Shown here: positions 1 through 10,358 of the stretch, one piece after another
Layout: each line of letters opens with the position of its first letter
Numbering within the stretch: position 1 is the first letter of the stretch
IMG/VR virus record: IMGVR_UViG_2663762810_000008
Direction: 5' to 3' (one strand)
Length of the DNA stretch: 14,413 bases
Source: a virus
Lineage: Duplodnaviria > Heunggongvirae > Uroviricota > Caudoviricetes
Made by a program: the position numbers and the translations under genes
The notes under the pieces: generated by a model
Database searches by the model: none
What the model was told of the DNA's origin: nothing
What the model saw: the letters and a program-made list of their open reading frames with translations, nothing else

Positions 1-319
1 TTGCCTCCCCCCCGTTGATGGGTAAAATAGCCGCAATTTTTCGTTTTCAACAAGCGCGGCGCGATGCCGCTTACTCAAGAAGAAAGAATTATGACGTTGT
101 CTCCTTATTTGCAAGAGGTGGCGAAGCGCCGCACTTTTGCCATTATTTCTCACCCCAATAATTAATCCCAAATTAAAGCTCTTTTACTCTTTCAAAATCC
201 TTTCAGTTAATTGAGGTCTGGTTATATAACTCATTTAAATACATATAGTTATGTGGCTTCTTTAATTGAAAATTCTTTCATGTAACTTTAAATCGATCAG
301 GTTGCTTTCATCAAAAATC

Positions 320-376
320 TGTACATATGCTTGTACATAATGTACAAAGCAGCAGAGGTGTTTTGCGATTTGTACA
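320..376. promoter_or_regulatory. Four copies of the palindromic hexamer TGTACA (320-325, 332-337, 341-346, 371-376) immediately upstream of the integrase start; candidate operator or integrase/accessory-protein binding array
   Basis: Direct: four exact TGTACA copies within 57 bp ending 10 bp before the integrase ATG at 386. Function is inference. Confidence 0.3.
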
Positions 377-385
377 AGGTGAGTA

Positions 386-1609
386 ATGGCGCTGTCTGAT
401 GCGTGGTTGCGTTCAGTCGTTGGAAAGGAACGTGATAAGGTTTTGGTTAAATCCGATCGTGATGGTCTGTCTGTCAGAGTATCACCGAAAGGTCGCGTAG
501 TGTTTCAATATCGTTATCAATGGGCAGGGAAAGGTGAGCGTCTTGATATCGGAACTTACCCGGCAACTGGATTAAAAGAGGCCAGAGAAGAAGTTATCCG
601 TCTCCGTGGTGAACTCGAGTCAAACCGTAATCCACGATTGGTCAAGCAGGCTGAAAAACGAAAAGCTACTGAAGCCATGACGGTAGAGTCTGTGATCCGT
701 GCCTGGTATGAAGCATATTGTGTAAAAAATAAAAAGGGTTCTGAACAGATACTCCGCTCGTTTGAGCTGCACCTGTTCTCTAAAATCGGGAATATCCCTC
801 ACGATGCAGCTACATTGCATGATTGGTTAGAAGTCCTGGAGCCTCTTAGCACTAAGACTCCAGCAATAGCAGACCGATTGCTAATTAACGCAAAGCAGGC
901 CCATGTCTGGGCGTATAAGAGAAAGCTTATTGAAACTCGCCCGCTGTCGGATATCACGGGTAAAGATATGGATATCCGTAAAGGTCAGAAGAAACGGTTT
1001 CTGACACACGATGAAATTAAAATTCTTTATGCTGCGATCGATGGCTCTAGAATGGTTCCCAAATACCGGGCCTTCATTAAACTATTACTGCATTTTGGTT
1101 GCCGTAGTTCGGAGCTAATTACTGCTAGGGTGGGTGATTTTGATTTCATAAATAAGGTATGGACTGTACCACCTGAACGACATAAGACAGGGGACATAAC
1201 AGGCGAACCGCTAAAGCGGCCCATTATTGAACCGGTTGAAGAGCTTATAAAATACGTTATCTCTATGAACAACGGTTCCGATATGCTTTTTACTAAGGAA
1301 GGAAGCAGGGAGCCAGTCGGTAGGACATCATTACAGTCGCTGCCTTACAATTTAATGCAGTACGCGTGGCGGCGTTTAGGATATCAATTCCCTCATTGGT
1401 CTCTTCATGACTTGAGACGGACAGCACGAACAAATTTTTCTGATCTTACTGCGCCTCATATCGCAGAAATTATGCTTGGTCATAAGCTGCCAGGGGTATG
1501 GCAAGTTTATGATAAGAGCGATTATCTAGAAGAACAGCGTAAAGCTTACCTGGCATGGTGGAAGAGGGTTGAATCGATTGTTAATTGTACTATCTCTGAT
1601 TCAAACTGA
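386..1609 (+). CDS. Tyrosine site-specific integrase, P4-like family
   Basis: 407-aa ORF with ATG start and AGGTGA ribosome-binding site upstream. N-terminal arm-binding-type region (ALSDAWLR...YRYQWAGKGERLDIGTYP), catalytic-region motifs HDLRRT and LGH, and a C-terminal tyrosine region (VWQVYDKSDY) typical of the family. Family call from motif memory, not a search. Confidence 0.9.
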   Translation: MALSDAWLRSVVGKERDKVLVKSDRDGLSVRVSPKGRVVFQYRYQWAGKGERLDIGTYPATGLKEAREEVIRLRGELESNRNPRLVKQAEKRKATEAMTVESVIRAWYEAYCVKNKKGSEQILRSFELHLFSKIGNIPHDAATLHDWLEVLEPLSTKTPAIADRLLINAKQAHVWAYKRKLIETRPLSDITGKDMDIRKGQKKRFLTHDEIKILYAAIDGSRMVPKYRAFIKLLLHFGCRSSELITARVGDFDFINKVWTVPPERHKTGDITGEPLKRPIIEPVEELIKYVISMNNGSDMLFTKEGSREPVGRTSLQSLPYNLMQYAWRRLGYQFPHWSLHDLRRTARTNFSDLTAPHIAEIMLGHKLPGVWQVYDKSDYLEEQRKAYLAWWKRVESIVNCTISDSN

Positions 1610-1894
1610 CGGTTTGTATCACCTGAACATAACCAAATCTCCTAGCACACTTTGAGCGAGATGTGAGCGTTAAGTTTACGCCATTGTGTTGACATAAGAG
1701 GGCACGGGTATAGATATCATCACTATCCCTATGCCCCTAAATCGCTCCTGCTATTTGATAAATGCAGATGTTTACCACCAAATGTTTTTGATACTATAGG
1801 TTGATTCATGATTTACCTAGAAACTTAGTTGTAACGAAAACTTCTTAACGGACACTATCTGGATAAAGTTAGTTTTTTATTTAAGAGGGTTAAC

Positions 1895-2614
1895 ATGTCA
1901 AAGTTAAAAAATGAACCATTAGTAAGGGTATCAGAAGAAGACGGAATAGAAATAAGGAAGATCCAATATCCAGATAATACGATAGAAAGAGTTTATAAGC
2001 AGAAAGGTGTAATATTACCACGAATACCTTTAAAAGGCCGCTTTGTAGAACAATATGTGGCCTTACAGTTGCTGGATAAAGATCTTCGGAATGTTATTGG
2101 TTGGGAGAATATAATAAAAAACATTTGTAATAACATTAATAGAGAACAACACTTTATTTATCCTGATTTAGAAAAGAATCTAATATTAAAGTCTTTATTT
2201 ATATCAAAAGTTGTTACTTACGGTAAGTGTTTTACAGAGGCGAAAGGGCGTCGATTCACATTGCAGAGAAAGCATGTGCCAGAAAAATACAGAGATTTAC
2301 ATGATTCTATTATGAATGTTAGACATAACTTTGCTGCCCATAAAGGTGAATTTGAATATGATCAATGTGGCTTGGTTTTAATATTGCCGGGGACCAAGAA
2401 AAAAAGGTGCTATCATATTTTTTCAGAACTCAATCAAATAAATTATGGTAATAATGAGGAAGATGATGAACGTTTTTTTATGTTATATGATTCACTGCGT
2501 AAAGTCATTAAAGAAAAACGAGATAAATTAATTGATAAAATATACGCTGAAAAGATTCATACTCAAACAATGGAGTATTGGTTGAGCCGAACAGGAAAAG
2601 AAACAGAGATTTAA
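1895..2614 (+). CDS. Hypothetical protein, 239 aa, AT-rich orphan gene with no family recognised; candidate accessory or defence cargo
   Basis: Clean ORF with ATG start and AGAGGG 5 nt upstream. Codon usage is visibly AT-rich (Lys/Asn/Ile/Glu-rich protein) compared with the flanking integrase and early operon. No transmembrane segment, P-loop or other motif recognised; an R-x5-H match (RHNFAAH, aa 143-149) is too degenerate to call HEPN. Confidence 0.6.
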   Translation: MSKLKNEPLVRVSEEDGIEIRKIQYPDNTIERVYKQKGVILPRIPLKGRFVEQYVALQLLDKDLRNVIGWENIIKNICNNINREQHFIYPDLEKNLILKSLFISKVVTYGKCFTEAKGRRFTLQRKHVPEKYRDLHDSIMNVRHNFAAHKGEFEYDQCGLVLILPGTKKKRCYHIFSELNQINYGNNEEDDERFFMLYDSLRKVIKEKRDKLIDKIYAEKIHTQTMEYWLSRTGKETEI

Positions 2615-2810
2615 TTTGTTCAGTATATAAAAGCTAATTTTTAAGGAGTAATTTTCAGATGATTAAAGCTGATTACATTGCGATAGGTACTCTACGACTA
2701 ACTTTTCAACAAGAGTAAGGGGGTAATCAATTTTATTTGTATCAATGGTATGACATTTCTTGGCGATAATGTTTTGATCTTATCGATTCATGTCATATGG
2801 TCATTGGTAA

Positions 2811-2842
2811 CGTCCGCTCTTGTTAAAGAGTGGACGCTCAGA
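2811..2842 (+). terminator. Candidate intrinsic terminator for the orphan-gene transcript
   Basis: Direct: 11-bp stem (2811-2821 with 2826-2836, loop GTTA) that is perfect in the plus-strand RNA through one G-U pair but has a C-A mismatch on the minus strand, followed by a moderately T-rich tail (GATTTGGTTTGG). Confidence 0.35.
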
Positions 2843-2896
2843 TTTGGTTTGGCATCTAATCATAGATGTGTCAGCTCACATCTAAGCTAATACATA

Positions 2897-3091
2897 TTAA
2901 TCAATCACTCCCGCAAATCTGTAAATCTTGTGTGATGCCCATTTATTTGGGCAGGATTTAATATCAGGATCTGGAAAGTCAGGCCTGTATTTCTGGCCAG
3001 TTCTCCTGTTTACGCTGTTCCAGCGAAGAACTGTCGATACTGAAACACCACAGAAATCGGCGACTTGTTTAGTTGTCATTAAGTTGTTCAT
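2897..3091 (-). CDS. Excisionase/AlpA-family helix-turn-helix DNA-binding protein
   Basis: 64-aa ORF; segment TTKQVADFCGVSVSTVLRW resembles excisionase/AlpA-type HTH proteins. Start ATG overlaps the upstream stop as TAATG (translational coupling). Confidence 0.65.
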   Translation of the reverse strand: MNNLMTTKQVADFCGVSVSTVLRWNSVNRRTGQKYRPDFPDPDIKSCPNKWASHKIYRFAGVID

Positions 3092-3711
3092 TACTTCACC
3101 TCCTGCGGCGGCTCCGGTAGCGGCATCCAGTGGGTTACTTTCGATGCCGGTTCTTCCCCATTGTCAGTAACTGCCCACCATTTGTTTCTCGAACAATCGT
3201 AATACCCTTCGAAGGTATCGTACTCAGTCCAGCCGTAAGACTTACCCCAACACCAAACATACTGTTTATCGTTCGGCATTCGCTCACTACAGCTTATCCA
3301 ACCATCCGGAGTTACCGGAGAGTTGCCCGACAGCTCGTTCAACTTGTAAGTCTGGCTTACAGGTTCGGCACCATTAAGCATGGCGGCGCGGCAGGCGTTC
3401 CAGCCTTCATCAAAGCCGACTATGCCATTATTTAAAGACGGACGAGCATCTGGCACCACCGGCACTGGCTTGGCTATATATAGCGGCTGAACATACCAGC
3501 CCTTTGATAACCAACTGTCAGCAATGTTTTTACTCCTCGTTATTGCCGGAATACCTAAGCCATTTTCTGAATGCAGCCATGCCACCGGCTCCTCTTCTAG
3601 CGATGCCAGAGCAATTTCATAAGCACGGCGCTCAATATCGTCTCGAACCTCTAGGCTGCTGATTCGTTCTTTGATTTCTTTAATCAGTTCTTTATTGGTA
3701 AATGTGGTCAT
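3091..3711 (-). CDS. DUF551-like prophage protein
   Basis: 206-aa ORF with C-terminal W-rich motif KWWAVTDNGEEP...THWMPLPEPP, remembered as characteristic of DUF551 (YfdS-like) prophage proteins. TAATG overlap with the upstream gene. Confidence 0.65.
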   Translation of the reverse strand: MTTFTNKELIKEIKERISSLEVRDDIERRAYEIALASLEEEPVAWLHSENGLGIPAITRSKNIADSWLSKGWYVQPLYIAKPVPVVPDARPSLNNGIVGFDEGWNACRAAMLNGAEPVSQTYKLNELSGNSPVTPDGWISCSERMPNDKQYVWCWGKSYGWTEYDTFEGYYDCSRNKWWAVTDNGEEPASKVTHWMPLPEPPQEVK

Positions 3712-4073
3712 TATGCTCCAGCCTCCGGCGCTTTTGGCATTACTGCCCAGTGAGTGATATTGAAGTTTTCAAGGTCCCCGACCTGAAATGTCCACTGCCA
3801 TTCTCCGGTTTCTTTTTGTCCCCAGGTGTACCAGAGAGAACGCCAGCCAATCAGCCAGCCTTCTCCGTTAGCATCAAATAACAGAACACTTTCATTTGCT
3901 GGTGGCAGTTCAGCTGACACTGGTATTATTTTGTTTTCCAGTGCCGCACATTTAGCTTCAAGCGCGTCGAATTTACGTACCAGGTACTCAGCATTTGTTT
4001 CGTTCACTTTCAGATCTCGCGGTACACATTTACCGCGAAGAAACCCTTCCATTTCGAAAACATTCATGCGCAT
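3711..4073 (-). CDS. Small DUF551-like paralog
   Basis: 120-aa ORF ending in ITHWAVMPKAPE, similar to the C-terminus of the adjacent gene. GGAG ribosome-binding site 8 nt upstream of the ATG at 4073; overlaps the upstream gene by 10 nt. Confidence 0.55.
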   Translation of the reverse strand: MRMNVFEMEGFLRGKCVPRDLKVNETNAEYLVRKFDALEAKCAALENKIIPVSAELPPANESVLLFDANGEGWLIGWRSLWYTWGQKETGEWQWTFQVGDLENFNITHWAVMPKAPEAGA

Positions 4074-4600
4074 TTGCGTAACTCCGATAACTCGTTAAAA
4101 CGTTCCATAAACATCCCGTAGGCATGGCTAGGTGCCAGTGGAATCACGTTGAACATCTCTGTTGCCGGGATGCCTTCCAGTACAGGCCAGAAAGAGCCAT
4201 CATCAAGCCCGAGATCGCGGCGTTCGGTTGCCAGCATGATAAGATCGGCATATTTCACGGGCGTACTCATAACTGGGGGTAACCCGTATTTCTCACGGAT
4301 TACGGCGTCAATTTTTTCTTCCATCCGTTTATAGTCAGGAAGAAGGCGTTTCAGTGGAGCGGGAATATCCTGGCAATACGCTTCTGTTGCATCATGCATT
4401 AACGCTTCAAAAGCAAATTCCTGCGGCACCAGCTGGCTGCAAAGCACCGCATGTTGGGCGACACTGTAGAAGTGAGAAAGATGACCGGCAAAGCGGCAGA
4501 TATTTGAAAGGGAAACCGCGATATCGTTAATCACGATGTCGTCTTTATTTATCTTGTCATAATAAAAATGCTTCCCGGAAAAAGTTTTAATAAATGACAT
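4064..4600 (-). CDS. HD-domain phosphohydrolase (YfdR-like 5'-deoxynucleotidase family)
   Basis: HD motif (ALMHDATEAY) plus upstream His (FAGHLSH). The track ORF begins at a GTG at 4627; the first ATG (4600, MSFIKTFSGKHFYYDK) has a GGAG site 6 nt upstream and is taken as the start (178 aa). Confidence 0.75.
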   Translation of the reverse strand: MSFIKTFSGKHFYYDKINKDDIVINDIAVSLSNICRFAGHLSHFYSVAQHAVLCSQLVPQEFAFEALMHDATEAYCQDIPAPLKRLLPDYKRMEEKIDAVIREKYGLPPVMSTPVKYADLIMLATERRDLGLDDGSFWPVLEGIPATEMFNVIPLAPSHAYGMFMERFNELSELRKCA

Positions 4601-4727
4601 TTTGTTCTCCACGTATATGCGCTGCACCGCGCTGAGTTTGGGTAAAAGGAAGCCCTCACCATCCGGTGATTATTGAGTTAATTACGTTTCCATAAATGCC
4701 CCCGCAGGGGCATTTGCAGTAATGAAA

Positions 4728-5345
4728 TCAGGCGGTGAAAGTACCAATAAAGGTTTCTACTTTGCTGTCTTTGAATTTCTCAACAAGCAGATCACGAAAT
4801 TCGTTAGCCATATCTTCCTGCACCGCTTCCAGCTGAATAATGCGCAGAACCAGTACAGGACGATCGCCAGTGATAATGCTGAGGCGTAATTTAAACGGAC
4901 GTTCTTTCAGACCTTCAAACGGAACGCATTTAATTTCAAATGCCACTGGCATAATGTCTTTGGTCTTCGCTTCGACAGATTCCATCAGGGAGCGTTTGCC
5001 GCTGAAGTCATTATCTTCAAAATCAGCGGTCTGGTTTGCTTCAATCGTGATTTTACGGACTGCCGCAGCTGCTTTTGTTGCCTGAATAGCGTCACCATTA
5101 GCATCAAAGCCCACAAGGTAGTCGGCCCAGTCTTCAATCCATTCTGCCAGTGACTTCTGGGAGTTACGCTCGCCGTTAACAGACAACAGGGCAGAGAACG
5201 GTGCTGTCTTTTTCAGTTTGAGAGTGGCGGTGTTATCTGCGTGACCTGGTTCATCAATAGTACCCAGGTTAAGTACACTGACGGCACGCATATTATCAGC
5301 ATCGATAAAGGTATTGTCCTGGATGAAAAAAGGACCCGGCTTCAT
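4728..5345 (-). CDS. DUF2303/YfdQ-like prophage early protein
   Basis: 205-aa ORF; resemblance to YfdQ-type proteins is from memory and uncertain. The 5' end lies antisense to the Q-homologous sequence, so the true start may be an internal Met (for example at 5291). Confidence 0.55.
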
Positions 5346-5976: not shown

Positions 5977-6189
5977 TCATGAAAGGTAAACATTGGCAGC
6001 TGAAGGGCCACGCAGACCATTTATCCGGCAAAATTCCACGCGTAATCCGGTGGTAATTTCTTCTGCATCGCGGAGATTGAGCGCTGAAACATGAAGCTGG
6101 ACATCGATACGACCATCGGATGGGGTGATAAGACCCTTGCCGCTTTTGCCGTCAAAGGTTTTGACAATTCCTGTCATTTTACGGGACAA
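5977..6189 (-). CDS. cspF: CspA-family cold-shock protein, CspF/CspH subtype
   Basis: Translation (M)[26 protein letters not shown]...[21 protein letters not shown] matches remembered CspF/CspH. The codon at 6189 is TTG, with an AAGGA site 7 nt upstream; the first in-frame ATG is at 6177. Divergent from cspB, as in Qin-type prophages. Confidence 0.8.
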
Positions 6190-6489
6190 AAAAATTCCTT
6201 AATACTGATAACTGGGCGCACTATACACACGTTCCTGAAGAAAGCTATAGTTTTTTGATGGGGTTGAAGATGGCTGGATGTCTAAAATAAACATTGCTTC
6301 ATATGTTCAACTATGCGTTAATGATTGCGTCGGTTTGAAGAACAGACGATATACGAAGTAGTTTACTAAAGCAGTTCTCATTTCAGGTGTTATTCACTTA
6401 TTCCTTCTTTGAGTCTCTCCAATTAAGTACGAAGTCGTTTCTGTTATACAAGCCATTTATGCCGAAAGGCTCAAGTTAAGGAATGTAGA

Positions 6490-6705
6490 ATGTCAAATAA
6501 AATGACTGGTTTAGTAAAATGGTTTAACGCTGATAAAGGTTTTGGCTTTATTTCTCCTGTTGATGGTAGTAAAGATGTGTTTGTGCATTTTTCTGCGATT
6601 CAGAATGATAATTTTCGAACCTTATTTGAAGGTCAAAAGGTTACCTTCTCTGTAGAGAGTGGTGCTAAAGGTCCTGCAGCAGCAAATGTCATAATTACTG
6701 ATTAA
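6490..6705 (+). CDS. cspB: Cold-shock protein CspB
   Basis: 71-aa translation [53 protein letters not shown]... carries the RNP1/RNP2 motifs of the cold-shock domain; AAGGAA ribosome-binding site and a long AT-rich 5' leader. Confidence 0.9.
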
Positions 6706-6986
6706 AATTCATAGTTTGTCTGTATACGATAACGAAGAAGGCTGATGCCTGAGTGGAGATACAGACAGAGTGGTGAATATTGGATCTCTTTAATAAATAG
6801 TAAGGAGGTCCAATACATGAAACAATGGCCAGCATATTTGGCAATAACTTAATCAGGAAAAGTATGCTAACCATTGTGGTGAAGTGCAGGTTTGCTGCAT
6901 GAATAGTTTTACAGCAGAAGCTAACTGCTGGCATAGCAAAACAAAGTGCGTAAGTGGATGACTCCCACAAAAAGTACCACAATATT

Positions 6987-9578: not shown

Positions 9579-9941
9579 ATTAATATTAAATCGGATTATT
9601 TTTAGCGCTGAATGTGAAATTTAAATAAAAAGGACTCTTCCATGAGTCAAAATCCTTGAAATCTTAAGGGTAAGATAAAAGGTCATTAGACAGAATGACA
9701 CGTTTTATTAATAAATAAAGCTATTGTTTCATTCGTGTGTTTTTCTTTACAAAAGTAATCCTTGCTATGGTTGGTTAATCATGCGTTAATGGTGTTCTGG
9801 TTTGTTACAAAATTATCTGAAGCAGTCATTGTTATAATTTTATTATTTGTACCTCTTGAGATCTCCTTGTTGGTTTTTCTCTCTGATATTTTTTTTCGGA
9901 CCATTCTGCCCAAGGGCTAACTTCTTCAAAAGGTAATAATG

Positions 9942-10154
9942 ATGTCTAACAAAATGACTGGTTTAGTGAAATGGTTTAACCCTGAAAAAGGTTTTGGTTT
10001 CATCACGCCGAAAGATGGTAGCAAAGATGTGTTTGTCCATTTCTCAGTTATTCAGAGCAACGATTTCAAAACGTTAACTGAGAATCAGGAAGTCGAATTT
10101 GGTATTGAGAACGGACCTAAAGGCCCCGCGGCTGTTCATGTAGTGGCACTTTGA
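9942..10154 (+). CDS. cspI: Cold-shock protein CspI
   Basis: Translation [70 protein letters not shown] matches remembered CspI. Tandem ATGs at 9939 and 9942; long AT-rich 5' leader. Confidence 0.9.
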
Positions 10155-10358
10155 GGTAGAAAATATTACAAACCATATTCACTTTAGATGCCCGTGTTGC
10201 CATGGTTCTCAGTATAGAACATCATCTTTTGATGTTTCTGACAGGAATCCTTTCGGGGCAAAATGTATCTTTTGTAAATCAATGATGATTACATTTGATA
10301 ATATTTCACAATACTTAAATGTTAGCCGTCTGTCGTTAGATTTAAGAAAGTGAAAATG

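What the first reader, a model, noticed from the sequence alone, without database searches (positions are those of the whole stretch)
1610..2896. AT-rich orphan gene between the integrase and the excisionase-like gene is the best candidate for an undescribed accessory or defence function
The 239-aa ORF at 1895-2614 is strikingly AT-rich relative to both flanking genes, has a good ribosome-binding site, and is followed by a strand-specific hairpin. It is the only plus-strand gene wedged between int and the leftward early operon. That gene-plus-terminator, compositionally foreign layout at an integrase-proximal position is typical of prophage cargo such as abortive-infection, superinfection-exclusion or anti-phage genes. 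I recognise no family; the one R-x5-H match (RHNFAAH) is too degenerate to support a HEPN call.
Basis: partly seen in the sequence, partly recalled or inferred. Interest (0 to 1): 0.75.

Follow-up and report, generated by a model that had tools for sequence, protein, structure and literature searches.

The report
Prophage cargo gene encoding HEPN-like nuclease
The AT-rich gene between the prophage integrase and excisionase is a real, mobile cargo gene from a large unnamed protein family that looks like a HEPN-type RNA-cutting enzyme, the kind of protein prophages use to abort infection by rival phages, but this role is untested.

Summary
ORF 1895-2614 (+), 239 aa, has 31.2% GC (GC3 25.4%), the lowest in the window. 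It has an AAGAGGG ribosome-binding site. It sits between a P4-type integrase and a leftward excisionase-like gene in an E. coli lambdoid prophage at the prfC site, and is identical to gp29 of phage 2H10.

It is not an orphan. A profile search finds 925 clusters of about 230-250 aa. None has a Pfam, NCBIfam or PADLOC model, and PHROG 8440 is "unknown function".

The AlphaFold2 model (pLDDT 93.6) shows an N-terminal beta-sheet plus a four-helix bundle. Across 104 diverse members:
- R143 is invariant.
- Residue 144 is always H, N or D.
- H149 is present in 103 of 104.

This R-[HND]-x4-H motif lies at the end of helix 3, where the HEPN Rx4-6H active site sits. Comparison with a curated HEPN family (PF18736) aligns exactly this segment (P = 7e-4; 0 of 100 shuffles reach the score).

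The gene always sits at a prophage edge or in a mobile-element cargo slot, and in Enterobacteriaceae it has no conserved partner gene.

Best reading: a stand-alone HEPN RNase acting as an abortive-infection or exclusion effector, analogous to HepS. Activity and phenotype are untested. It is a new family of a known kind, of moderate interest.

The parts
386..1609 (+). Tyrosine integrase, P4 type (Arm-DNA-bind_3 + Phage_int_M + Phage_integrase). It is the upstream neighbour on the same strand, not part of the cargo.
   Evidence: Pfam hits at E 6e-17, 1.9e-16 and 1.4e-07. Annotated as integrase in RefSeq and in phage 2H10.
1736..1823 (+). Block of the upstream region conserved with the Cronobacter copy. 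It contains an imperfect 20-bp palindrome, CTGCTATTTGATAAATGCAG (1748-1767), which may be an operator. This reading is inference only.
   Evidence: Alignments of the upstream regions. The sequence was read directly.
1829..1858 (+). Putative weak sigma-70 promoter: TTGTAA, 18-nt spacer, CACTAT. At the same position Leclercia has TTGATA, 16-nt spacer, TATTAT, and Cronobacter has TATTAT.
   Evidence: Three-genus alignment. The consensus scan did not call it, so this is inferred.
1883..1889 (+). Ribosome-binding site AAGAGGG, five bases (1890-1894) before the ATG.
   Evidence: Sequence. Conserved in three genera.
1895..2614 (+). Cargo gene of 239 aa (WP_000040219.1; phage 2H10 gp29, YP_009909736.1). 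GC is 31.2%.
1919..2035 (+). N-terminal beta-strand region, residues 9-47.
   Evidence: AlphaFold2 secondary structure, with local pLDDT about 97-98.
2039..2557 (+). Predicted HEPN-like four-helix bundle, residues 49-221. Helices are 49-79, 92-111, 130-147 and 188-221. There is a loop insert at 112-129 and a beta-hairpin at 157-180 after the motif.
2321..2341 (+). R143-H-N-F-A-A-H149, an Rx5H motif and the proposed RNase active site.
   Evidence: R is present in 104/104 members, residue 144 is H, N or D in 104/104, and H149 is present in 103/104. The motif lies at the end of helix 3. It aligns to the RNSxAH motif of PF18736.
2811..2836 (+). Stem-loop of 11 bp followed by a U-rich stretch. It may terminate the cargo transcript. 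It lies at the junction between cargo and backbone.
   Evidence: Fold: centroid dG -18.7, z -3.5. Junction position. Not conserved with the gene in other genera.
2863..2884 (.). Perfect 8-bp hairpin, TAGATGTG/CACATCTA. It belongs to the backbone downstream of xis, not to the cargo.
   Evidence: Conserved in prophages that carry other cargo.
2897..3091 (-). Excisionase-like helix-turn-helix gene, the last gene of the leftward early operon. It is the downstream neighbour, convergent with the cargo gene.
   Evidence: Weak HTH_17 and MerR-type hits. Annotated as excisionase in phage 2H10.

Best explanation
ORF 1895-2614 is an autonomous accessory (cargo) gene of a lambdoid prophage. It encodes a stand-alone enzyme of the HEPN superfamily.

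Predicted structure. The protein has an N-terminal beta-sheet region and a four-helix bundle. The invariant R143-[H/N]-x4-H149 motif, at the end of helix 3, is the predicted metal-independent RNase site.

Proposed mechanism, by analogy with stand-alone HEPN defence proteins.
1. The protein is made at a low level in the lysogen. Expression would come from its own weak promoter or by read-through from int. In P2/186-like prophages the gene overlaps the end of int.
2. It is held inactive, because it has no antitoxin partner.
3. When a superinfecting phage component is sensed, it oligomerises or rearranges so that two Rx5H motifs form an active site.
4. It then cleaves tRNA or another RNA. Translation stops and the infection aborts.

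What is shown: the gene is real, it is foreign in composition, it is mobile between cargo slots, it has no partner gene in Enterobacteriaceae, it has the predicted fold, and the motif is conserved and correctly placed.

What is inferred: RNase activity, expression in the lysogen, the trigger, and the anti-phage phenotype.
For: Cargo status
- GC is 0.312 against about 0.45-0.49 for the neighbours.
- Sister prophages with the same int and xis carry unrelated unknown genes in the same gap.
- The gene is present in 71 of 5426 complete E. coli genomes and in the phage 2H10 genome record.

Mobility between cargo slots
- int, then ORF, then xis in the window type: 14 of 22 IMG/VR contigs, one without int because the contig ends there.
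- umuD, umuC, then ORF at the other prophage end. This holds while ORF identity falls from 85% to 31%.
- P2/186-type int, then ORF, then att. The gene overlaps int by 17-20 nt in two loci; the order is also seen.
- PMC13586616 reports the int-att gap of P2 as a minor defence hotspot.
- Members also occur in a Vibrio filamentous phage, on a conjugative element beside a Schlafen-type ATPase, and in a lambdoid prophage beside a type IV restriction HNH gene.
- No partner gene is conserved in Enterobacteriaceae.

HEPN assignment
- AlphaFold2 pLDDT is 93.6 and pTM 0.85, with helices 49-79, 92-111, 130-147 and 188-221.
- Motif conservation: R143 104/104; residue 144 H59, N44, D1; H149 103/104.
- Motif position, the polar residue after R, and the insert between helices 2 and 3 all match the HEPN definition in PMC3710099.
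- hhalign against PF18736 gives P = 7.2e-4 over helix 3 plus the motif.
- Controls score far lower than the real 29.5: reversed alignments 11.2 and 11.3; 100 column shuffles mean 13.2, maximum 22.8.
- The relaxed alignment is colinear and includes a beta-hairpin after the motif.
- Three of 104 members give weak hits to PF18734, HEPN_AbiU2.

Precedent
- HepS is a stand-alone prophage HEPN protein with no partner. It senses a phage protein and cleaves tRNA (PMC13043305).
Against: - No member reaches a curated threshold in Pfam, NCBIfam or PADLOC. The family consensus sequence also hits no HEPN model.
- The hhalign probability is only 26%, and the confident alignment is local (28 columns). That alignment is ungapped, so H149 is offset by one from the template histidine because the spacing differs.
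- I could not obtain model coordinates. Whether D63, Y109, K111, R119, H136, R143 and H149 cluster in space is therefore unchecked.
- The alternative cargo genes in the same slot are not known defence genes either.
- The promoter is weak and not called by the consensus scan.
- Two IMG/VR copies appear disrupted, and one E. coli genome has an IS1 within or beside the region.
- There are no expression, toxicity or phage-resistance data.
Confidence: 0.5

Rival explanations
1. It is a HEPN-type RNase, but it does not defend against foreign phages. It would serve the element itself. It could slow host growth or moderate phage yield during SOS induction, as a prophage competition or maintenance factor, or it could act as a selfish toxin.
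For: Synteny with prophage umuD-umuC (SOS cargo) persists over large divergence, with ORF identity down to 31%. In P2/186-like prophages the gene is coupled to int. HEPN proteins of Gifsy-1 affect the prophage's own yield and RNA-repair signalling (PMC9879122; PMC13043305).
Against: No LexA box lies upstream of the gene in the window. No antitoxin-like partner is conserved. The gene also occurs in elements without umuDC or int, namely an inovirus and a conjugative element. The umuDC linkage may only reflect a shared cargo region next to att.
Confidence: 0.2
2. It is a non-catalytic four-helix-bundle protein. It might bind a ligand, protein or nucleic acid, or resemble a histidine-phosphotransfer domain. 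The conserved R and H residues would then be structural or binding residues, and the resemblance to HEPN would be convergent.
Against: An invariant R, followed six positions later by an invariant H, with H, N or D always after the R, is the HEPN signature. It lies at the end of helix 3, not in mid-helix as in HPt domains. The profile match to PF18736 is well above the shuffle controls. A phosphorelay domain has no obvious reason to be single-gene phage cargo.
Confidence: 0.15
3. It is a phage-benefit gene for the lytic cycle or for counter-defence, for example an RNase that degrades host or competitor RNA or a defence signal. It would then not be a lysogen-expressed immunity gene.
For: It is carried by a sequenced phage genome, 2H10. 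HEPN folds are versatile. Expression timing is unknown.
Against: It is transcribed convergently to the early-left operon and lies outside the lytic operons. In P2/186-like prophages it follows cI and int, which in phage 186 form the lysogenic operon (my own knowledge). In the window it is retained in a prophage that has lost about 8.3 kb of immunity and replication genes.
Confidence: 0.1

Closest known systems
HepS, the 'HEPN Solo' abortive-infection protein of Salmonella prophage Gifsy-1 (PMC13043305)
   Same: Both are single HEPN-type proteins under 250 aa, encoded as lambdoid-prophage accessory genes. Neither has a conserved partner or antitoxin. Both carry an Rx4-6H motif about 90-100 residues from the C-terminus. 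HepS shows that such a protein can both sense a phage (the tail-tip protein J) and act as the effector (a tRNA anticodon nuclease working as a tetramer).
   Different: I found no sequence or fold match to any PDB chain beyond generic bundles. I could not confirm that the HepS entry 9OIK is in the libraries searched. HepS has Rx4H (R100-H105), whereas this protein has Rx5H (R143-H149) and an extra N-terminal beta region of about 45 residues. [quoted passage not shown] Trigger, target and oligomeric state are unknown here.
Pfam PF18736, HEPN_pEK499_p136 ('HEPN family nuclease'; family B of Anantharaman et al. 2013)
   Same: This is the only curated family with a measurable profile similarity: hhalign P = 7e-4, centred on helix 3 and the R-N/H-...-H motif. 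The relaxed alignment suggests the same order of elements: helix, helix, insert, helix 3 with the motif, beta-hairpin, helix 4. It is also carried on mobile elements, here plasmid pEK499.
   Different: PF18736 proteins are about 160 aa with Rx4H and no N-terminal beta region. Identity is about 21% over only 28 confidently aligned columns. The Pfam model does not hit this protein.
Lactococcal Abi HEPN proteins, especially AbiU2 (PF18734)
   Same: These are HEPN proteins of abortive-infection loci with a conserved Rx4-6H motif (PMC3710099). Three of 104 family members give weak hits to PF18734.
   Different: The hits have E about 0.04, far below the family threshold. Neither the window protein nor the family consensus hits the model. 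PADLOC Abi models do not hit.
HEPN-MNT (HepT/MntA) toxin-antitoxin toxins, for example PDB 7ae2 and 5yep
   Different: Those toxins are about 130-140 aa and are neutralised by an adjacent nucleotidyltransferase antitoxin. No such gene accompanies this family.
RemN of the RemAIN system (Gifsy-1 STM14_3218-3220)
   Same: It is a prophage HEPN nuclease of similar size (663 bp gene). Earlier domain searches also failed to recognise it (PMC9879122; PMC13043305).
   Different: RemN works with an ATPase (RemA) and an immunity protein (RemI). The window gene stands alone. I could not obtain the RemN sequence, so homology is untested.

Membership tests
HEPN superfamily (Anantharaman et al. 2013, PMC3710099) | A four-helix up-and-down bundle core. 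| tested here: met
HEPN superfamily | A conserved Rx4-6H motif with a polar residue (N, D or H) directly after the R. | tested here: met
   R143 is present in 104/104 members. Residue 144 is H in 59, N in 44 and D in 1. H149 is present in 103/104. The spacing is x5. The definition is quoted.
HEPN superfamily | [quoted passage not shown] | tested here: met
   Helix 3 spans 130-147/148 and the motif spans 143-149 in both models. The criterion comes from PMC3710099.
HEPN superfamily | [quoted passage not shown] | tested here: met
   A loop at residues 112-129 carries the conserved G118 and R119.
HEPN superfamily | [quoted passage not shown] | tested here: inconclusive
   D63 is invariant. E61-x3-R65 occurs in about half of the members, but it lies in helix 1 of the model, not helix 2.
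HEPN superfamily | Significant sequence or profile similarity to an established HEPN family. | tested here: inconclusive
   hhalign against PF18736 gives P 7.2e-4 but probability 26%, with a local alignment on the motif helix. The score is above all 100 shuffles and both reversed controls. No Pfam HEPN model is hit at threshold. PDB sequence profiles give nothing.
HEPN superfamily | Metal-independent endoribonuclease activity that depends on the R and H residues, usually through a dimeric composite site. | not testable with these tools
   This needs biochemistry, or at least multimer modelling.
HepS family (stand-alone HEPN Abi, PMC13043305) | Detectable homology to HepS, with Rx4H at about residues 100-105 and a tetramer sensing tail-tip protein J. 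| tested here: not met
Known anti-phage defence systems (PADLOC-DB v2.0.0) | A match to a model of a known or candidate defence protein. | tested here: not met
   The window protein has no hits at E up to 10. Across the 104 members there are only scattered single weak hits.
Abortive-infection or superinfection-exclusion gene (functional class) | Lower plating efficiency or premature cell death on phage challenge when the gene is expressed. | not testable with these tools
   No experimental data were found. An accession search of the literature returned nothing.
Prophage 'moron' or cargo cassette | Foreign composition, presence or absence among otherwise homologous prophages, location at a module boundary, and its own expression signals. 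| tested here: met
   Composition. Alternative cargo in the same int-xis gap. Location at prophage ends in three phage types. The upstream region and ribosome-binding site are conserved with the gene across genera. The promoter and terminator are only putative.

The most novel reading that the evidence does not exclude
This family would be a new, widespread class of single-protein abortive-infection systems: a HEPN RNase fused to a small N-terminal beta-sheet sensor. There are at least 925 clusters at 50% identity, and the members I could trace to an organism are all Gammaproteobacteria. It would shuttle between the att-proximal cargo slots of lambdoid, P2/186-like and filamentous prophages and conjugative elements. 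It would detect a phage component directly and shut down translation. The int-xis gap of prfC-site prophages would then be a previously unmapped defence hotspot whose other occupants (150, 160, 271 and 417 aa, all unknown) are further new systems.
Probability: 0.35. Interest if true: 0.65.

Novelty: new member of a known kind. Interest (0 to 1): 0.5.

Why it matters
Stand-alone HEPN nucleases encoded by prophages have only recently been shown, with HepS, to combine sensing and killing in one protein and to shape competition between prophages.

This family is large and has no curated model in Pfam, NCBIfam or PADLOC. It is carried by very different mobile elements, always in cargo positions. 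If it is an RNase-based defence, three things follow:
- It adds a new HEPN family with a distinct sensor region.
- It gives a ready test case, because phage 2H10 is a sequenced coliphage and the gene has its own upstream region.
- It marks the int-xis gap of prfC-site prophages as a place to look for more unknown systems.

If it is not a defence gene, it is still a conserved, mobile enzyme-like protein of unknown role that deserves a family definition.

Tried and rejected
Searches that gave nothing useful
- Pfam, NCBIfam and PADLOC scans of the protein, of 23 and 104 family members, and of the family consensus gave no significant family. The Tcp10_C hit (E 0.01, 15 residues) is noise.
- PDB sequence-profile searches with A1 and A2 gave only chance hits: bacterioferritin, RFC and poxvirus H7.
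- Foldseek against PDB and BFVD found nothing at E below 0.001. The afdb50 library was unavailable.
- Rfam on the whole window found only two cspA thermoregulators, far from the gene.
- Literature searches on the accession and on phage 2H10 found no functional data.

Ideas tested and dropped
- A LexA box upstream, which would explain the umuDC linkage: none found, and the matches in the window are at chance level.
- A conserved downstream small ORF or antitoxin: the 19-codon ORF at 2659 with a good Shine-Dalgarno sequence is not conserved with the gene in Cronobacter.
- A paralogue in locus L026: the second 227-aa gene is unrelated.
- An allelic variant in L047: it is a frameshifted copy.

Things I could not obtain
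- An AbiU2 family alignment for hhalign. The supplement of PMC3710099 is not held as text.
- The HepS and RemN sequences and the RemAIN and Brenes & Laub papers, which are not held. One literature search was wasted on a term that matched common words.
- The search for related loci with A2 failed because no stretch was conserved enough. With A1 it found only one species-representative genome.
Full report
**1. What the window is**

The window is part of an E. coli lambdoid prophage integrated next to yjjG, at the 5' end of prfC.
- Bases 1-4700 are 100% identical to several E. coli chromosomes.
- The finding's region, 1610-2896, is 100% identical to phage 2H10 (NC_049950, genus Glaedevirus). There the ORF is gp29, "hypothetical protein", between gp28 (integrase) and gp30 (excisionase).
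- RefSeq calls the protein WP_000040219.1, hypothetical.
- The gene order is: att/prfC fragment, int (+), ORF (+), then convergent xis-like, DUF551, DUF551 and yfdR genes on the - strand.

**2. Check of the observation**

The ORF runs from 1895 to 2614 and encodes 239 aa.

Composition is clearly foreign.
- ORF GC is 0.312 and GC3 is 0.254.
- int is 0.446, the xis-like gene 0.415 and the DUF551 genes 0.47-0.49.
- The lowest 720-nt GC window of the whole sequence lies inside the ORF.

The ribosome-binding site AAGAGGG lies five bases (1890-1894) before the ATG. It is conserved in Cronobacter and Leclercia.

A stable stem-loop lies at 2811-2836.
- It has 11 bp, a centroid energy of -18.7 kcal/mol and z = -3.5 against shuffles.
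- It is 197 nt past the stop codon.
- It has a G.U pair and a U-rich tail only on the + strand.
- The - strand folds nearly as well, and the terminator scan did not call the site.

Comparison with sister prophages places this hairpin at the junction between cargo and backbone. The second hairpin (2863-2884) is backbone sequence downstream of xis. In other genera the downstream region is not conserved with the gene. The description is therefore correct, but "strand-specific terminator of the cassette" is only weakly supported.

**3. It is a real gene and not an orphan**

- A first search found 25 proteins of 235-253 aa in Enterobacteriaceae and Yersinia at 37-99% identity, all unnamed.
- A profile search of 1.84 billion cluster representatives found 925 with E at or below 1e-3, 399 at or below 1e-10 and 63 at or below 1e-30. 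Most are 220-250 aa.
- Named members come from Serratia, Pantoea, Acinetobacter baumannii and Parendozoicomonas, and all are "hypothetical".
- A Vibrio filamentous-phage protein is a full-length member (hhalign E 3e-63).
- Pfam, NCBIfam and PADLOC have no model for the family. PHROG 8440 matches end to end but has no assigned function.

**4. Fold and motif**

AlphaFold2 gave pLDDT 86.8 with 23 sequences and pLDDT 93.6 (pTM 0.85) with 104 sequences. Both models have the same topology:
- strands at 9-15, 18-24 and 30-36;
- helices at 49-79, 92-111, 130-147 and 188-221;
- a beta-hairpin at 157-163/174-180 between helices 3 and 4.

Across 104 members that share 19-54% identity with the window protein, conservation is as follows:
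- Invariant positions: D63, Y109, R119, H136 and R143.
- Near-invariant positions: W70, K111, F113, G118, A148, H149, G151 and L197.
- Position 144 is H in 59 members, N in 44 and D in 1. H149 is present in 103 of 104.

Anantharaman et al. (PMC3710099, read) define the HEPN site as follows:
- an Rx4-6H motif in which the residue after R is "mostly N, D or H";
- frequent inserts between helices 2 and 3.

All three features are present here. The motif is R143-H-N-F-A-A-H149, helix 3 ends at 147/148, and the insert is residues 112-129. [quoted passage not shown]

**5. Independent tests of the HEPN reading**

For a sequence-level test I took a curated HEPN protein from plasmid pEK499. It is annotated "HEPN family nuclease", and all its homologues carry PF18736. 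I aligned 52 homologues and ran hhalign against the 104-member alignment.
- The single hit covers the loop, helix 3 and the motif: KLER..l.......HD..M..RHNFAAH against GL..S.I.....TL..LI..LRNSIAHF.
- It scores 29.5, with P = 7.2e-4 and probability 26%.
- Reversed alignments score 11.2 and 11.3.
- One hundred column shuffles give mean 13.2, sd 2.75 and maximum 22.8.
- With a relaxed threshold the alignment is colinear over 151 columns. It pairs the beta-hairpin after the motif and the last helix of both families, but at low confidence.

Three of the 104 members also give weak hits to HEPN_AbiU2. This was the only family hit by more than two members.

Taken together, I rate membership of the HEPN superfamily at about 0.7. 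The family is new within it. It differs from PF18736 by x5 spacing and by the N-terminal beta region.

**6. Genomic behaviour**

The gene is present in 71 of 5426 complete E. coli genomes, always on the chromosome. In the loci examined it is always in the prfC-site prophage.

Other strains have the same int and xis but different genes in the gap:
- two genes of 150 and 160 aa (O145 strain RM12367-C1);
- one of 271 aa (strain 204446);
- one of 417 aa (strain PEC178).

All are on the int strand, and none has a Pfam or PADLOC hit at E of 1e-3 or better (only two marginal PADLOC hits, E 0.0012 and 0.0066, for the 271-aa protein). The gap is therefore a variable cargo slot.

Across genera the family occupies three recurrent positions:
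- (A) P4-type int, then ORF, then convergent xis.
- (B) umuD, umuC, then ORF, then the prophage end. This linkage persists while ORF identity drops from 85% to 31%.
- (C) P2/186-type int, then ORF, then att. The ORF start overlaps the int stop by 17-20 nt in two loci, which implies co-transcription with cI and int.

A 2026 survey lists the int-att gap of P2 as a minor defence hotspot, holding 3% of P2 systems (PMC13586616).

More distant members lie in other mobile-element settings:
- on a conjugative element, beside a Schlafen/AlbA_2 ATPase that matches PADLOC pAgo-associated models;
- in a lambdoid prophage, beside an HNH protein matching type IV restriction enzymes at E 4e-20;
- in the accessory region of a Vibrio inovirus.

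An all-against-all comparison of neighbouring genes found no partner shared across contexts, apart from umuDC and int within each context. Neither flank carries a conserved small gene. In Acinetobacter the member is the last gene of a tight four-gene cluster of unknowns. The family may therefore also work within multi-gene systems.

**7. Mechanism proposed**

The closest functional precedent is HepS of Salmonella prophage Gifsy-1 (PMC13043305). HepS is a lone HEPN protein with no partner. It is constitutively present as a tetramer, is allosterically activated by the tail-tip protein of infecting siphoviruses, and cleaves tRNA anticodon loops to abort infection.

By analogy, I propose that the window protein is made at a low level in the lysogen. 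Candidate sources of expression:
- a weak promoter at about 1829-1858, whose position is conserved across three genera;
- read-through from int.

I further propose that it is kept inactive by its own architecture, possibly through the N-terminal beta region and the post-motif hairpin, and that it is switched on by a phage component to cut RNA through R143 and H149.

Shown: the gene is real, is cargo, is mobile, stands alone in Enterobacteriaceae, and has the predicted fold and the conserved, correctly placed motif. Inferred: catalysis, expression timing, trigger, target and phenotype.

My estimates:
- about 0.7 for a HEPN-type enzyme;
- about 0.45 for anti-phage defence;
- 0.5 for the combined statement as worded.

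**8. Rivals**

- (a) The same enzyme, but serving the element itself during SOS or induction. The umuDC linkage and the Gifsy-1 precedents favour this. The absence of a LexA box and the gene's presence in elements without umuDC argue against it.
- (c) A lytic-cycle or counter-defence function. The gene's orientation, its coupling to the lysogenic operon in P2-like phages, and its retention in the deleted prophage of this window argue against it.

**9. Novelty and score**

The kind of system is known: prophage-borne stand-alone HEPN nucleases. This family is not described in any library or paper I could search, and no phenotype is known. I file it as a new member of a known kind. Interest is 0.5. 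It would matter to specialists in phage defence and gives a directly testable candidate, but it would not overturn current ideas.

Noticed in passing
window about 5300-5310 (junction), compared with locus L001 16728-26230: The prophage in this window lacks about 8.3 kb that is present in otherwise identical prophages such as strain Ec1119. The missing stretch runs from the 5' part of yfdQ through yfdP, the cI-like and cro-like repressors and the replication genes to the Q antiterminator. Homology resumes just before the cspF-like gene. The element is therefore a deletion derivative that has kept the cargo gene.
   Followed up: partly
window 91-159 (+), and 1-385 overall: Upstream of int there is a short prfC 5' fragment ([22 protein letters not shown]), annotated in RefSeq as a partial CDS. 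This is presumably the duplicated attachment-site segment of a prophage inserted into the start of prfC.
   Followed up: partly
L019 2311-3287; L020 2364-3179; L021 2383-3636: Sister prophages with the same integrase and xis carry different genes in the int-xis gap: 150 + 160 aa, 271 aa, and 417 aa. None has a Pfam hit, and the only PADLOC hits are two marginal ones for the 271-aa protein (E 0.0012 and 0.0066). This is a variable cargo slot filled with unknowns.
   Followed up: partly
L012 5021-7720; L018 1077-3653; L043, L045, L048, L049, L054: In another group of prophages the family gene always follows a umuD-umuC (Y-family polymerase) pair at the prophage end. The linkage persists while the family protein's identity to the window protein falls to 31%. 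In L016 and L028 only umuD-like remnants are left upstream.
   Followed up: partly
L055 5773-8735 (Acinetobacter baumannii): A family member is the last gene of a tightly packed four-gene cluster (368, 149, 220 and 244 aa). None has a Pfam or PADLOC hit, and no integrase is nearby. This may be a multi-gene system that uses the same effector.
   Followed up: partly
L022 2670-3407 (Vibrio phage 10N.286.54.E4_PE002, Tubulavirales): A full-length family member (hhalign E 3e-63) sits in the accessory region of a 10.9-kb filamentous phage. The depositor's note reads "endonuclease".
   Followed up: partly
window 6329-6768 and 9795-10200 (+): There are two Rfam cspA thermoregulator matches (156 and 117 bits) in front of prophage-borne cold-shock genes. 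A third csp-like gene lies on the - strand at 5977-6189.
   Followed up: no
window 2863-2884: A perfect 8-bp hairpin (TAGATGTG/CACATCTA) just downstream of xis is conserved in prophages whatever their cargo. It may be the terminator or a processing site of the leftward operon.
   Followed up: partly
window 1748-1767: An imperfect 20-bp palindrome, CTGCTATTTGATAAATGCAG, lies in the best-conserved part of the gene's upstream region and is shared with the Cronobacter copy. It may be an operator.
   Followed up: no
L046 1510-2227; L047 1510-2226; hit H76 (NZ_CP116067.1): Some copies appear disrupted. In L046 only 176 of the 239 residues align, L047 contains five stop codons, and one E. coli genome has an IS1 within or beside the region. 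These could be real decay or assembly errors.
   Followed up: no
window 2897-3091 (-): The 64-aa excisionase-like gene is annotated in phage 2H10 but has no CDS in the RefSeq chromosome record. In that record the adjacent DUF551 gene is marked as partial or pseudo, although the window has an intact 206-aa ORF.
   Followed up: no
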